Shown: piece after piece, positions 11,917-52,869 of the stretch | Position numbering within the stretch: the stretch's first letter is position 1 | Layout of the letters: each line of letters starts with the position of its first letter | Assembly: GCA_024654025.1 (NCBI GenBank) | Contig: JANLIR010000002.1 | Location: 168,959-232,958, forward strand | Length of the DNA: 64,000 bases | Origin: Candidatus Wolfebacteria bacterium | Lineage (GTDB): Bacteria > Patescibacteriota > Minisyncoccia > UBA6257 > UBA9933 | Direction: 5' to 3' | Position numbers and translations under genes: made by a program | The notes under the pieces: generated by a model | Told to the model about the DNA's origin: nothing | Seen by the model: the letters and a program-made list of their open reading frames with translations, nothing else | The model's database searches: none

Positions 11917-11945
11917 AAAAACTCGCCACTAGGCGAGTTTTTTAG
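11917..11945. terminator. bidirectional terminator hairpin between pnp and rpsT
   Basis: aaaaACTCGCC acta GGCGAGTttttt. Overlaps the last rpsT codons. Confidence 0.7.
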
Positions 11946-18218: not shown

Positions 18219-18330
18219 TGCGCGTTGAGGGGATTGAACCCCCGACCTGTCGCCTAAGGCGACCGTTCTAACCAACTGCTCCGACGCTTCGGTCGGAGCC
18301 CCGACTTCGTATTAGCGAACGTCGGAGAGC
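18219..18330 (-). pseudogene. tRNA-like remnant or aberrant tRNA
   Basis: The minus strand has a normal D-loop/T arm/acceptor 3' strand (..AGTTGGTTAGAAC G GTCGC cttag GCGAC AGGTC GGGGG TTCAATC CCCTC AACGCGC A). The anticodon loop is only 5 nt and there is no matching 5' acceptor strand. It is preceded by interlocking hairpins GCTCTCCGAC/GTCGGGGC and GCTCCGAC/GTCGGAGC. Confidence 0.3.
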
Positions 18331-19184: not shown

Positions 19185-19206
19185 CTCCTTATTATAGCAA
19201 AAAAAG

Positions 19207-19278
19207 TGCGAGTGGCAGGGATCGAACCTGCGACGGCCGTCTTATAAGGGCGGTGCTCTACCACTGAGCTACACTCGC
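19207..19278 (-). tRNA. tRNA-Ile(UAU)
   Basis: GCGAGTG TA GCTC AGTGGTA GAGC A CCGCC CTTATAA GACGG CCGTC GCAGG TTCGATC CCTGC CACTCGC A. One C-A mismatch in the anticodon stem. Confidence 0.75.
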
Positions 19279-19394
19279 AAATTATTTCATAACCAGCTGC
19301 CTGTCCGCCGCAGTCCGCCTATTGGCGGACGAAGGAGGAAGCTACACGCGCAAAGATAGCAATAAATATAGCAAAAACTTTTGTATAGTCAAAG

Positions 19395-24230: not shown

Positions 24231-24255
24231 AACAGGTCGCCTGAGGCGACCTGTT
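24231..24255 (-). terminator. ftsH terminator
   Basis: AACAGGTCGCC tga GGCGACCTGTT with a T-rich tail on the minus strand. Confidence 0.75.
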
Positions 24256-32406: not shown

Positions 32407-32570
32407 TTTTGCGCTTACGCTAACACGATACTAATATACTAATTTTACTAATGATACGAATTGGATACGAATTCGTATTTATTAGTATCATTCGAATGCA
32501 TTCGTCCTTCGACTTACTCAGGACGACCCTGAGTCGGTCGAATGGGTCGTATATTGGTATCACAATCACA

Positions 32571-33815
32571 ATGAGGCGTTTCTATTTTGATTACGCTGCT
32601 ACTACTCCGATTGACCCAGAGGTTTTAAAAGAAATAAATTCTAATTTAAGGAATAATTTTGGCAATCCCGGATCGCTCAATTTTTTCGGGCAAGCCGCAA
32701 TGGCAATGGTTGATAAATCGCGCGAAAAAATCGCCAACGCAATCAACGCTGATTTTCGGGAAATAATTTTTACCGGATCCGCGACGGAGGCAAACAATCT
32801 CGCACTCAGAGGAATACTAAAAAACGCCCGCCTGCGCCAAGGCTTCGGCGGGCAGGTAAAAACTAAAAGCAAAAAACCGAGAATAATTGTTTCAGCTATT
32901 GAACACGAATCTATTTTAGAAACTGCTAGAGATTTATCCGCCAGAGGCGGATCCGCCTTTGGCGGAGAAAAAGAAGGCGTGGAAATTATTTATTTGCCGG
33001 TTGATAAAAACGGCGTTGTGGATTTAAAGAAGTTAGAGAACGCATTGAACGAAAGAACGATTTTGGTTTCAATAATGTACGCGAACAACGAAACCGGAGT
33101 CATACAACCAATAGCAGAAATCGCCGAAATTATAAAAAAATTCAAAGAAAAAAAATACCCTAAACCCTACACCCTAAACCCTACACCCTATTTTCACACC
33201 GACGCTGTCCAGGCGTTCCAATTTCTGGATTGCAATATTAAAAACTTAGGGGTAGATTTAATGACTTTATCGGCTCATAAAATTTACGGACCAAAAGGAA
33301 TTGGCGCGTTATACGTACGCAACTCACAACTCACAACCTACAACTTACAACCAATAATTACTGGAGGAAAACAAGAATTTGGATTAAGATCCGGCACTGA
33401 AAACGTTGCCATGATAGCTGGTTTCGCCAAAGCAATTGAATTGGCAAATGAGAAACGGGAAAAAGAGAAAAAAAGAATTTTTTTGCTGGCGCAATATTTT
33501 TTTAAAGAAATAAAAAAGATTGTTCCGAGCGCCCAACTAAACGCAGGGAAGGCCAAGCGGCTGCCTAATATTTTAAATATCGCTTTCTCGGGTTATGACG
33601 CGGAGAGTTTGCTGATAAAATTTGACCTTAACGGCACTGCTGTTTCCCGAGGCTCGGCGTGTATGGCGCGTTCGTCTCAGTCGTCTTATGTATTAAAAGA
33701 AATGGGACTAAGTGAAAGCGAGCAGCGCTCCAGTTTGCGGTTTAGCTTCGGCAGATTTACAACAAAAGAAGAAATGTCTAAAGCCTTGAAAATTATAAAA
33801 AAAACATTAAAATAG
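32571..33815 (+). CDS. cysteine desulfurase (IscS/NifS family)
   Basis: YFDYAATTP, FTGSATEANN, SAHKIYGPKGIGALYVR (PLP Lys), RSGTENV, SRGSACM (active Cys). Start placed at MRRFYF. Confidence 0.9.
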   Translation: MRRFYFDYAATTPIDPEVLKEINSNLRNNFGNPGSLNFFGQAAMAMVDKSREKIANAINADFREIIFTGSATEANNLALRGILKNARLRQGFGGQVKTKSKKPRIIVSAIEHESILETARDLSARGGSAFGGEKEGVEIIYLPVDKNGVVDLKKLENALNERTILVSIMYANNETGVIQPIAEIAEIIKKFKEKKYPKPYTLNPTPYFHTDAVQAFQFLDCNIKNLGVDLMTLSAHKIYGPKGIGALYVRNSQLTTYNLQPIITGGKQEFGLRSGTENVAMIAGFAKAIELANEKREKEKKRIFLLAQYFFKEIKKIVPSAQLNAGKAKRLPNILNIAFSGYDAESLLIKFDLNGTAVSRGSACMARSSQSSYVLKEMGLSESEQRSSLRFSFGRFTTKEEMSKALKIIKKTLK

Positions 33816-33978
33816 ACCAAAATAATTCACTATAAGTTTGAAGGTTTTACCAAATGGAAAAGAACTCTCTTTTGAGATAACATTAGAAGAGAGGCCAAAC
33901 AATTAATAAGTAAATTAAAAAACTGGAGAATTGAAAGCTTCAAGTATTTCAGTCTTTTAGTATTTTAGTTTTTATAAT

Positions 33979-51858: not shown

Positions 51859-52869
51859 TTATTTTTTTAGTCCGGTTGCTTTTTTTACCTCCTCTAGTTT
51901 TTTGTTCGCAATCGCCTCCGCTTTTTTATTTCCAACTGCCATTAATTTTTCTATTTTCCTGATATTTTTGGAAAGCAGATTTTTCTTTTTCTGAAATACC
52001 ATAAAATAATCGATTATCACGTTTGATAAATCTTTTTTAAATTGGCCGTAAGATTTATTTTCGTATTTTTTTTCAATTTTCTTCATCGGCAAACCGCTCA
52101 AGTTTTTGTAAATTCTGAGCAGATTGGAAATCGCCGGTTTTGATTCGGGCAGGTATTTTATTTCTTTTCCGGAATCGGTCACAGCCCGTTTTATTTTCTC
52201 CGTCATAATCTGCGGCGAGTCGTCTAAAAATAAACATCCTTCGGGCATTGATTTGGACATTTTTTTATTTGGGTTGTCCAAGCTCATTATTTTCGGTGTC
52301 TCGGTTAAAAGCGGTTTTGGTTCAATAAAGACCTTGCCGCCTGCCCGCCCGTCTGGCGGGAATTTTTTATTGAATTTTCGCGCCAATGTTCTCGTTAATT
52401 CCAAGTGCTGGAGTTGGTCTTCGCCAACAGGAACAAATTCGGCGTCGTAAAGCAAAATATCAGAGGCCATTAAAACCGGATAATCAAATAACCCGACATT
52501 TATATTTTCTCGCTGGTGTTCGGATTTATCTTTGAACTGCGTCATTCTTTTTAATTCTCCAAACGGCGTAACGGTGTTTAAAATCCAGGCGGTTTCGCTG
52601 TGAGCCGGTATTTTCGACTGGATAAAGATTGTCGATTTTTCGGCGTTTAGTCCCGCTGAAAGATAATCAAGAACCAAATTCAAAACTTGCCCCGGTTTTT
52701 CTTTCGGGTCGTAACTTTCGGTTATAGAATGAAGGTCGGCAACAAAAAAGTAGCATTTGTATCGGCCTGAATTTTGCAGGTCAACAAAATTTTTTAAAGC
52801 CCCTAAATAATTTCCTATGTGAAGTTTCCCTGTCGGCTGGATTCCTGAAATTAAAATCGGTTTGGACAT
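51859..52869 (-). CDS. trpS: tryptophan--tRNA ligase
   Basis: SGIQPTGKLHIGNYLG (HIGH), KMSKS. Confidence 0.93.
   Translation of the reverse strand: MSKPILISGIQPTGKLHIGNYLGALKNFVDLQNSGRYKCYFFVADLHSITESYDPKEKPGQVLNLVLDYLSAGLNAEKSTIFIQSKIPAHSETAWILNTVTPFGELKRMTQFKDKSEHQRENINVGLFDYPVLMASDILLYDAEFVPVGEDQLQHLELTRTLARKFNKKFPPDGRAGGKVFIEPKPLLTETPKIMSLDNPNKKMSKSMPEGCLFLDDSPQIMTEKIKRAVTDSGKEIKYLPESKPAISNLLRIYKNLSGLPMKKIEKKYENKSYGQFKKDLSNVIIDYFMVFQKKKNLLSKNIRKIEKLMAVGNKKAEAIANKKLEEVKKATGLKK

What the first reader, a model, noticed from the sequence alone, without database searches (positions are those of the whole stretch)
32826..32966. GC-rich palindromes inserted in frame in the cysteine desulfurase gene (three hairpins)
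32826-32853 reads GCCCGCC tgcgccaaggcttc GGCGGGC and encodes ARLRQGFGGQ. 32937-32966 is a tandem pair TCCGCC aga GGCGGA TCCGCC ttt GGCGGA and encodes SARGGSAFGGE.

I aligned the protein from memory against E. coli IscS. These segments fall where this protein is about 10-13 aa longer: after the ...LA(I/L)(K/R)G segment, and at L(E/S)REG.

The same CGCC-N3/4-GGCG hairpin family forms the intergenic terminators at 11921, 19313, 24235, 50823 and 59240. In an AT-rich genome these look like terminator/REP-like palindromes that have colonised coding sequence while keeping the frame. That is analogous to Rickettsia palindromic elements.
Basis: partly seen in the sequence, partly recalled or inferred. 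Interest (0 to 1): 0.7.

Follow-up and report, generated by a model that had tools for sequence, protein, structure and literature searches.

The report
Tiny palindromic inserts inside essential genes
Two GC-rich palindromes in this Wolfebacteria cysteine desulfurase gene are each an exact 30-base, in-frame copy of a short palindromic DNA element that also sits inside many unrelated, often essential genes of uncultivated bacteria; this resembles the palindromic inserts known from Rickettsia, but these are much smaller and far more widespread.

Summary
Both palindromes are clean 30-nt, phase-0 insertions into surface loops of an IscS/NifS-type gene (32571-33815) of a Candidatus Wolfebacteria genome.

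The "tandem pair" (32937-32966) is one unit, EL1: TCCGCC-N3-GGCGGA twice, which is its own reverse complement. The exact pattern occurs in at least 120 genome contigs (about 0.004 expected by chance), in Patescibacteria and about ten other phyla, inside rpoB, rpoC, dnaE, dnaG, uvrB/C, aaRS genes and others. In ORFs of 300 aa or more, 51 of 57 copies are in the phase that encodes SAxGGSAxGG. Flanks follow TTN|NAA and there is no target duplication.

The first palindrome (32826-32855) belongs to a second, oriented family, EL2 (GCCCGCC-N3-GCCAAGGC-N3-GGCGGGC-AR), found in at least 120 metagenome contigs.

Relatives with empty sites exist for both. Between near-identical strains, presence or absence sits inside a short tract of mostly third-codon-position differences, so the elements move between strains by homologous recombination. 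How they first insert is unknown.

The kind is known (Rickettsia RPEs, intragenic REPs). These families lack the GTAG/CGTC REP tags, and I found no description of them. The window's terminators share only the CGCC...GGCG stem core.

The parts
32571..33815 (+). Host gene: IscS/NifS-type cysteine desulfurase (class V aminotransferase), 414 aa
   Evidence: ORF and start. E = 6e-78 to NFS1 and 3e-75 to E. coli IscS. NCBIfam NifS/IscS matches fall below the equivalog cut-offs. 100% identical to a Candidatus Wolfebacteria MAG protein.
32826..32855 (+). EL2 copy: GCCCGCC-TGC-GCCAAGGC-TTC-GGCGGGC-AG. Exact 30-nt phase-0 insertion encoding ARLRQGFGGQ
   Evidence: Empty allele in L250 reads AAC|GTA and the window reads AAC[30 nt]GTA. 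The 28-mer is identical to copies in unrelated contigs L176 and L239. The family occurs in at least 120 metagenome contigs. Residues 91-99 have pLDDT below 50 and lie in coil.
32937..32966 (.). EL1 copy: TCCGCC-AGA-GGCGGA|TCCGCC-TTT-GGCGGA. Dyad-symmetric 30-nt phase-0 insertion encoding SARGGSAFGG
   Evidence: Empty alleles: L001 CTA|GAA, L250 and L251 TTA|GAA. At least 126 copies in at least 120 genome contigs. ssDNA fold -16.2 kcal/mol, z = -5.75. Residues 126-134 have pLDDT below 50 and lie in coil.
32879..33113 (+). Divergent (recombination/co-conversion) tract around the EL1 copy, relative to the near-identical strain L001
   Evidence: 0 mismatches in 32571-32878, 32 in 32879-33113 (13.6%), 14 in the remaining ~700 nt. 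24 of the 32 are at third codon positions.
19303..19330 (.). Intergenic EL1-type single unit GTCCGCC-TATT-GGCGGAC, preceded by an extra GTCCGCC half; lies next to tRNA-Ile
   Evidence: ssDNA fold -9.2 kcal/mol, z = -2.0. tRNA-Ile at 19206-19278 on the minus strand.
52339..52359 (-). Related in-frame hairpin insert in tryptophanyl-tRNA synthetase: CCCGCC-AGACG-GGCGGG, encoding PPDGRAG (boundaries +/- a few nt)
   Evidence: 7-aa gap against solved TrpRS chains exactly at this point. GC spike at 52330-52361. Perfect 6-bp stem.

Best explanation
Both palindromes are copies of short (30-nt) GC-rich palindromic 'selfish' DNA elements of the REP/RPE kind. They are dispersed through the genomes of many uncultivated bacteria.

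Shown:
- Each is an exact 30-nt insertion, between codons, without target-site duplication, into a loop of the enzyme.
- The same sequences sit in many unrelated genes, mostly housekeeping, and in intergenic DNA.
- EL1 sits at TTN|NAA sites.
- EL1 reads the same on both strands. In real genes it is found almost only in the phase that gives the flexible peptide SAxGG-SAxGG.
- In close strains, filled and empty alleles differ by a short tract of mostly third-codon-position changes around the element.

Inferred:
- The elements insert more or less anywhere that fits their target. Only copies that keep the frame (length 3n), encode a harmless Gly/Ser/Ala-rich loop and land in a tolerant surface loop survive.
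- They then spread among related strains by homologous recombination of the flanking gene segment.
- The hairpin itself is kept intact, either by selection or by hairpin-templated correction.

Not shown:
- The primary insertion mechanism. My best guess is a single-strand hairpin-recognising HUH/Y1-type enzyme acting in trans, as for REP/RAYT and IS200/IS605. I give that about 0.3.
For: - Exact insertions against empty alleles: site 2 and site 1; indels against solved homologues.
- Dispersal: EL1 in at least 120 genome contigs with 126 copies, locus GC 0.30-0.70, many phyla. EL2 in at least 120 metagenome contigs with conserved spacers and an AAGC tail.
- Hosts: rpoB, rpoC, dnaE, dnaG, uvrB, uvrC, mfd, polX, pheT, cysS, other aaRS, Mur ligase, hsdR and others.
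- Independent hits at different sites of one gene family, and at the same site in divergent homologues.
- The five desulfurase carriers each have only non-carriers as nearest relatives.
- Phase bias: 51 of 57 copies in ORFs of 300 aa or more. This is not explained by target availability (297/305/259 sites per phase) or by stop codons.
- The TTT|AAA flank consensus is equal in coding and non-coding copies.
- Stems are perfect in 129 copies against 7 decayed ones, and three of the variants are compensated.
- L002's copy differs from the window's only at 2 loop bases, although flanking synonymous sites are saturated.
- Mosaic tracts enriched in third-codon-position differences in two independent strain pairs.
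- Inserts lie in low-pLDDT coil.
- A third in-frame hairpin insert in TrpRS of the same window.
- Precedents: RPEs and intragenic REPs in repair, replication and aaRS genes (PMC10969869, PMC3733652).
Against: - No mobilising enzyme was found. No protein family recurs within +/-4 kb of more than 5 of about 120 copies, and only 64 kb of this genome could be read.
- No new insertion event was caught directly. In both strain pairs the polymorphism is explained by recombination.
- Near-absence of decayed copies, and the same site being occupied in 5 distant desulfurase lineages, would also fit a conserved functional hairpin.
- Copy number in this window is low (one EL1, one EL2, one single unit).
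Phylum labels are the depositors' MAG labels.
- In GC-rich metagenomes up to about 20 EL2 matches could be chance (my estimate).
Confidence: 0.75

Rival explanations
1. The hairpins are functional cis-elements kept by selection, not selfish DNA. Examples would be intragenic RNA or DNA structures acting on transcription pausing or attenuation, mRNA stability or ribosome pausing, or binding sites for a dimeric protein.
For: - Stems are almost always perfect, loops vary, and compensated stem variants exist.
- EL1 is a perfect dyad, as protein-binding sites often are.
- CGCC...GGCG is the specific stem core of the window's intergenic, terminator-type hairpins.
- GGCGGA is the EciI-type IIG recognition site (PMC3899748).
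Against: - Presence is patchy: absent from 94-97% identical strains and from the nearest relatives of all five carriers.
- Positions within host genes are arbitrary and the hosts are unrelated.
- Strong selection on reading phase shows that the peptide matters.
- There is no T-run after either coding copy on the sense strand.
Confidence: 0.12
2. Ancient insertions at a few sites, spread only by homologous recombination or gene conversion (homing-like), with no ongoing transposition.
For: Both strain-pair polymorphisms lie in tracts enriched in third-codon-position differences. Yeast mitochondrial GC clusters are also exchanged through conserved flanks (PMC4478555).
Against: - It cannot explain identical 28-30-mers in hundreds of unrelated genes and in non-coding DNA.
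- It cannot explain occupation of the same site in lineages only 58-67% identical, too diverged for homologous exchange.
Confidence: 0.07
3. Palindromes generated locally (template switching or slippage) and convergently selected as glycine-rich linkers.
For: The insert sites are hypervariable loops that also hold heptamer repeats and other low-complexity inserts.
Against: Codon-level identity of the fixed 24 and 22 bases across genomes of 30-70% GC, far above chance. The window's EL2 copy is identical, spacers included, to L176 and L239.
Confidence: 0.03
4. Sequencing or assembly artefact.
For: All listed carriers are metagenome-assembled genomes.
Against: - Many independent projects, assemblers and long contigs up to 1.6 Mb.
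- Same site in independently assembled relatives.
- Reading-phase and flank biases.
- Clean empty alleles.
Confidence: 0.02

Closest known systems
Rickettsia palindromic elements (RPE; Ogata et al. 2000, as reviewed in PMC10969869 and PMC2229807)
   Same: Palindromic repeats inserted in frame into unrelated conserved genes. They are translated, sit in non-structured segments, and also occur between genes.
   Different: RPEs are 105-146 bp with roughly 12-bp terminal inverted repeats and are specific to Rickettsia. The elements here are 30 nt, occur across many phyla, and EL1 encodes the same peptide in either orientation.
Intragenic GTAG- and CGTC-tagged REPs (Di Nocera et al. 2013, PMC3733652)
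   Same: - Small GC-rich hairpins, often as dimers.
- Found inside uvrABCD, recBCD, polA, dnaE/dnaE2 and aaRS genes, overlapping the host classes found here.
- Sometimes at the same site in different species.
- CGTC REPs have no known transposase.
   Different: - The defining terminal GTAG or CGTC tag is absent.
- Stems are shorter (6-7 bp) with 3-nt loops or spacers.
- EL1 is mostly intragenic (75 of 126 copies in ORFs of 200 aa or more).
- The identical sequence is shared across phyla, whereas REPIN/RAYT systems are described as lineage-specific and vertically inherited (abstract listed).
Yeast mitochondrial GC clusters (e.g. GC42; PMC4478555) and the double-hairpin elements of Allomyces mtDNA (Paquin et al. 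2000, cited there)
   Same: - Short GC-rich hairpin elements in an AT-rich genome.
- Substitutions concentrate in loops.
- Exchange between lineages by homologous recombination through conserved flanks.
- Units merge into doubles.
   Different: They are organellar, mostly intergenic, and carry a putative target-site duplication (AG). Here there is no duplication and the hosts are bacterial chromosomes.
[quoted passage not shown]
   Same: Coding sequence with dyad symmetry that can be read on both strands; horizontally distributed.
   Different: PARCELs are 75-nt tandem domains of dedicated surface and membrane proteins, not single inserts in housekeeping genes.

Membership tests
Rickettsia palindromic elements (RPE) | In-frame insertion into conserved protein genes, in loops compatible with the fold | tested here: met
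   Exact 30-nt phase-0 inserts against empty alleles. Gaps against solved homologues. Coil with pLDDT below 50.
Rickettsia palindromic elements (RPE) | Length 105-146 bp with a long stem-loop and ~12-bp terminal inverted repeats (PMC2229807) | tested here: not met
   Both inserts are 30 nt.
Rickettsia palindromic elements (RPE) | Restricted to Rickettsia; sequence similarity to RPE consensus sequences | tested here: not met
   The host is Candidatus Wolfebacteria and the carriers span many phyla. Similarity to RPE consensus sequences was not computed.
GTAG-/CGTC-tagged REPs | Conserved GTAG or CGTC tetranucleotide at one end of the palindrome | tested here: not met
   A tag lies within 8 nt of an end in at most 4% of EL1 and EL2 copies.
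GTAG-/CGTC-tagged REPs | GC-rich stem-loop (stem 5-13 bp, loop 2-20 nt), frequently as dimers | tested here: met
   EL1 is two 6-bp stems with 3-nt loops. EL2 is a 7-bp outer stem plus a 3-bp inner stem.
GTAG-/CGTC-tagged REPs | Predominantly extragenic, downstream of ORFs | tested here: not met
   75 of 126 EL1 copies lie in ORFs of 200 aa or more.
GTAG-/CGTC-tagged REPs | Association with a RAYT (HUH/Y1) transposase gene in the genome | not testable with these tools
   Only 64 kb of this genome and +/-4 kb around other copies could be read. No protein family recurs near more than 5 of about 120 copies.
MITEs | Target-site duplication flanking the element | tested here: not met
   CTA|GAA becomes TTA[30]GAA, and AAC|GTA becomes AAC[30]GTA. 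At most a 1-nt ambiguity.
MITEs | 70-300 bp with 15-30-bp terminal inverted repeats derived from an IS (PMC3733652) | tested here: not met
   30 nt in total; no related IS was seen.
Intrinsic (rho-independent) terminators | GC-rich hairpin followed directly by a T/U run on the transcribed strand | tested here: not met
   The sense strand continues GGCGGA-GAAAAAG and GGCGGGC-AGGTAAAA. The true terminators at 11922, 24235 and 59239 do have T-runs, but different stems.
EL1 as defined here (30-nt dyad element) | TCCGCC-N3-GGCGGA-TCCGCC-N3-GGCGGA, RRA/TYY loops, TTN|NAA flanks, phase 0 in genes | tested here: met
   The window copy has loops AGA/TTT, flanks TTA|GAA, and phase 0.
EL2 as defined here (oriented 28-32-nt element) | GCCCGCC-N3-GCCAAGGC-N3-GGCGGGC-A(A/G), sense orientation in genes, read as ARLRQG[FY]GGQ or PAxAKAxAGK | tested here: met
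   The window 28-mer is identical to L176 and L239, has tail AG, is in sense orientation, and is in the ARLRQGFGGQ frame.

The most novel reading that the evidence does not exclude
EL1 and EL2 (with relatives such as the 42-nt YCCCGAC double hairpin and the 15-16-nt single units that give 'PPAGG') form an undescribed, cross-phylum superfamily of 'micro-palindromes'. On this reading they are the shortest mobile DNA known. They actively insert without target duplication at short AT-rich sites (TTN|NAA for EL1), are mobilised in trans by an enzyme not yet identified, and keep writing small glycine-rich loops into essential proteins (RNA polymerase, replicase, repair enzymes, aaRS) of Patescibacteria and other uncultivated bacteria.
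Probability: 0.35. Interest if true: 0.8.

Novelty: new variant of a known kind. Interest (0 to 1): 0.62.

Why it matters
- **Unrecognised source of protein variation.** If these 30-nt elements are truly mobile, gene-dense reduced genomes such as those of CPR bacteria carry a class of selfish DNA that survives by being translatable. It would be a recurrent source of indels in the most conserved proteins.
- **Practical consequences.** That affects alignments, phylogenies and structure prediction for uncultivated lineages.
- **Markers.** The elements give ready-made markers of recombination between strains.
- **A mechanistic question.** How does a 30-bp dyad get inserted cleanly, with no duplication, in phyla as far apart as Patescibacteria, Omnitrophota and Chloroflexota?
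- **Testability.** Filled and empty alleles exist in public metagenomes, so the question can be addressed with existing data.

Tried and rejected
1. **Heptamer-repeat context of EL1.** Some copies sit in 7-nt tandem repeats, but no junction reached a periodicity of 0.7 and most have none. Not a general feature.
2. **The two loops as reverse complements (inverted duplication of one unit).** 24 of 126 are exact, against 16.5 in shuffles (maximum 30), so not significant. It reflects the RRA/TYY loop consensus.
3. **EL1 inserted in tRNA T-loops (L091, L108).** ARAGORN finds the same intact tRNAs with or without the element, which lies 15-55 nt downstream.
4. **A linked mobilising gene.** All-against-all BLASTP of 2002 ORFs from the loci gave no family in more than 5 loci.
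5. **Known RNA family.** The Rfam gathering scan of the window gave only tRNAs and tmRNA.
6. **A tRNA-like gene at about 18220-18300 with a TTA anticodon.** Not supported by ARAGORN or Rfam.
7. **Phase bias caused by target availability or stop codons.** Rejected.
8. **EciI-type restriction site (GGCGGA 11/9, PMC3899748).** A true coincidence of sequence, but I could derive no mechanism from it. Left as a lead.
9. **Literature.** Searches for the sequences, the peptides, CPR plus palindromes, and CPR plus REP/RAYT found no description.
10. **Phage carriage.** Only 2 IMG/VR contigs hold EL1.
11. **The site-1 hairpin as a statistically unusual fold.** It is not. Its significance comes from recurrence elsewhere.

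Full report
**1. What is there**

The window is 39.8% GC. The ORF around the finding encodes a 414-aa IscS/NifS-type cysteine desulfurase. The start is ATG 32571 and the stop is at 33815. It matches human NFS1 at E = 6e-78 and E. coli IscS at 3e-75. Its NCBIfam NifS/IscS scores fall below the equivalog cut-offs. It is 100% identical to a protein of a Candidatus Wolfebacteria MAG.

Against NFS1 the protein has gaps of 12 aa and 10 aa at these places. It also has a 13-aa gap at a heptamer array (33157-33190) and a small one at a second array (33320-33351).

An AlphaFold2 model (pLDDT 77, pTM 0.81) places all four segments in coil between secondary-structure elements. pLDDT is below 50 at residues 91-99, 126-134 and 254-273.

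**2. Both palindromes are exact 30-nt insertions**

- **Site 2.** Strain L001 (94-97% identical protein) reads GAT CTA|GAA AAA. The window reads GAT TTA[TCCGCCAGAGGCGGATCCGCCTTTGGCGGA]GAA AAA. L250 and L251 have TTA|GAA empty.
- **Site 1.** L250 reads AAA AAC|GTA AAA. The window reads AAA AAC[GCCCGCCTGCGCCAAGGCTTCGGCGGGCAG]GTA AAA.
- Neither insertion has a target-site duplication, apart from a 1-nt ambiguity.

**3. The 'tandem pair' is one dyad-symmetric element (EL1)**

The same stem, TCCGCC...GGCGGA, appears with 4-nt loops as 'PPAGG' inserts at three other positions of the desulfurase in other lineages. It also appears in intergenic DNA, at window 19303-19330 and at L005 1805.

About 0.004 matches are expected by chance, and fewer than 1 even at 70% GC. 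Carriers are MAGs labelled as many Patescibacteria classes and also as Omnitrophota, Kiritimatiellae, Lentisphaerae, Planctomycetales, Verrucomicrobiota, Ignavibacteria, Bacteroidota, Chloroflexota, Firmicutes and 'Gammaproteobacteria'. Locus GC runs from 0.30 to 0.70.

The fixed part is its own reverse complement, so frame 0 gives SAxGGSAxGG on either strand. Properties of the copies:

- **Reading phase.** In ORFs of 300 aa or more, 51 of 57 copies are in that phase (22 of 23 at 500 aa or more; p of about 1e-18).
- **Controls for the phase bias.** Target availability does not explain it: TTN|NAA sites number 297, 305 and 259 in the three phases of the window's genes. Stop codons do not explain it either: phase 1 never creates one. 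The inserts are therefore translated and selected for the benign peptide.
- **Flanks.** The flanks are symmetric: T at positions -3, -2 and -1 in 58%, 82% and 62% of copies, mirrored by A on the right. This is equal in coding and non-coding copies. The empty alleles show that these bases belong to the target.
- **Loops.** They follow RRA / TYY. Exact loop complementarity is not above shuffles.
- **Hosts.** By Pfam: rpoC, rpoB, dnaE, dnaG, uvrB, uvrC, mfd, polX, pheT, cysS, class I and class II aaRS, a Mur ligase, hsdR, ArsA, glycosidases and a solute-binding protein.
- **Sites within families.** The same family can be hit at different sites (class II aaRS in L018 and L045). Divergent homologues can be hit at the same site (three Ignavibacteria C-terminal domains).
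- **Desulfurase carriers.** Five of 120 homologues carry EL1 at site 2. Each has only non-carriers among its six nearest relatives.
- **Conservation in L002.** L002 is 59% identical in protein. Its copy differs from the window's at only two loop bases, while the flanking synonymous sites are saturated.
- **Decay.** In 925 kb of loci there are 129 perfect copies and 7 with 1-4 stem mismatches. Three of those are compensated.
- **Fold.** As ssDNA the window copy folds into one long hairpin (-16.2 kcal/mol, z = -5.75).

**4. The first palindrome belongs to a second, oriented family (EL2)**

Its own fold is not unusual for its composition (z = -0.74). However, GCCCGCCNNNGCCAAGGCNNNGGCGGGC hit the 120-contig limit in metagenomes. 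By my estimate up to about 20 matches could be chance in very GC-rich data. Three observations argue that the family is real:

- The spacers are conserved: four spacer pairs account for 64 of 123 copies.
- There is a 3' AAGC tail and a sharp 5' edge.
- 19 copies with full flanks lie in loci below 50% GC.

The window's 28-mer is identical to the copies in L176 and L239. In low-GC loci, all 13 copies in ORFs of 140 aa or more are in sense orientation. They are read either as ARLRQG[FY]GGQ (as in the window) or as PAxAKAxAGK.

**5. How the polymorphism arose between strains**

The window and L001 have no mismatch over 308 nt (32571-32878). They then have 32 mismatches in 235 nt around EL1 (32879-33113), followed by about 2% divergence. 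Of those 32 mismatches, 24 are at third codon positions.

L251 and L252 are identical over 6.2 kb. They differ at site 1 by a different 42-nt double hairpin (CCCCGAC...GTCGGGG TCCCGAC...GTCGGGA). That insert is preceded by 17 mismatches in 45 nt, 11 of them at third codon positions.

So filled and empty alleles are exchanged as short tracts from diverged but functional alleles, by homologous recombination or co-conversion. The same has been reported for yeast mitochondrial GC clusters (PMC4478555). This explains spread among relatives. It does not explain the origin of copies in unrelated genes.

**6. Relation to the terminators**

Of the 16 possible GC-only tetramer stems, only CGCC-N3-5-GGCG is enriched in the window (14 observed against 2.7 expected). 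It supplies 8 of the 12 intergenic hits. The stems differ, however: CTCGCC, GGTCGCC (three copies), AGGCGCC. The clear terminators have T-runs. The 'same family' claim therefore holds at the level of a shared core only.

Outside the desulfurase, coding-sequence hits are near chance. One exception is TrpRS (51859-52869, minus strand). It carries a 7-aa insert, PPDGRAG, exactly on a CCCGCC-AGACG-GGCGGG hairpin.

**7. Comparison with what is known**

In-frame palindromic inserts in housekeeping genes are known from several sources:

- Rickettsia RPEs, which are 105-146 bp (PMC10969869, PMC2229807).
- Wolbachia and M. jannaschii elements (cited in PMC2996958).
- Intragenic GTAG/CGTC-tagged REPs in uvr, rec, pol, dnaE and aaRS genes (PMC3733652).

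EL1 and EL2 lack the REP tags. They have no target duplication. They are three to five times shorter than RPEs, and they are shared between phyla. No recurrent neighbouring gene was seen. Literature searches for the sequences, the peptides, or REP-like elements in CPR found nothing. That covers only the open-access library.

**8. Verdict**

The kind of element is known, and these families appear to be undescribed variants. The primary insertion mechanism remains unknown and is the main open question.

Noticed in passing
window 51859-52869 (minus strand); insert about 52339-52359: Tryptophanyl-tRNA synthetase carries a 7-aa insert (PPDGRAG) relative to solved TrpRS structures. It lies exactly on a GC-rich hairpin, CCCGCC-AGACG-GGCGGG, making it a third in-frame hairpin insert in this window.
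   Followed up: partly
window 33157-33190 and 33320-33351: Two heptanucleotide tandem arrays lie inside the desulfurase gene: ACCCTAA/ACCCTAC x4.9 and CAACTCA x4.6. They encode KYPKPYTLNPTPY (a 13-aa insert against NFS1) and NSQLTTYNLQP. Relatives down to about 75% identity share them. The window and L001 differ by the same A/G change in two units of the first array (33169 and 33183).
   Followed up: partly
window 32481-32546: A 66-nt structured insert (ssDNA fold -13.9 kcal/mol, z = -3.2) lies just upstream of the desulfurase start codon and is absent from the near-identical strain L001. It contains CCTTCGACTTACTCAGG. That motif family also forms a 24-nt in-frame insert in L251/L252 and recurs 15 times in 1.6 Mb of fetched loci.
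   Followed up: partly
L252 6258-6299 (same codon position as window 32826): A different 42-nt double hairpin (CCCCGAC-N8-GTCGGGG TCCCGAC-N6-GTCGGGA, 14 aa) occupies site 1 in one of two otherwise identical strains. YCCCGAC...GTCGGGR hairpins recur in other loci, so site 1 is a hotspot for several hairpin families.
   Followed up: partly
window 13712, 18249, 24236: Three intergenic hairpins share the stem GTCGCC-N3-GGCGAC, and two share the 7-bp stem GGTCGCC. This may be another small repeat family. The one at 24236 looks like a terminator.
   Followed up: no
L012 4587 and 6408, L057 7325, L009 4484 (Kiritimatiellae MAG JAQUMN01): In this genome EL1 is embedded in a longer repeated sequence with identical flanks of at least 45 nt (…gcataggaattt[EL1]caatccgtctttgttgtcattccgagcgtag…). 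EL1 can therefore travel as part of a larger repeat.
   Followed up: no
L091 1730, L108 3318: EL1 copies lie 15-55 nt downstream of intact tRNA genes, inside a T-arm-like sequence (gggttc|EL1|aaatccc). The window's single unit at 19314 is also next to a tRNA.
   Followed up: partly
L251/L252 4260-4994: A GIY-YIG (LEM-3-like) nuclease gene lies about 1 kb upstream of the desulfurase in these relatives. No counterpart was noted in the corresponding part of the window.
   Followed up: no
window 33895-33977: The desulfurase-clpB spacer is a second indel-rich, divergent patch between the window and L001 (55-88% identity, several small indels), in a region that is otherwise about 100% identical.
   Followed up: no
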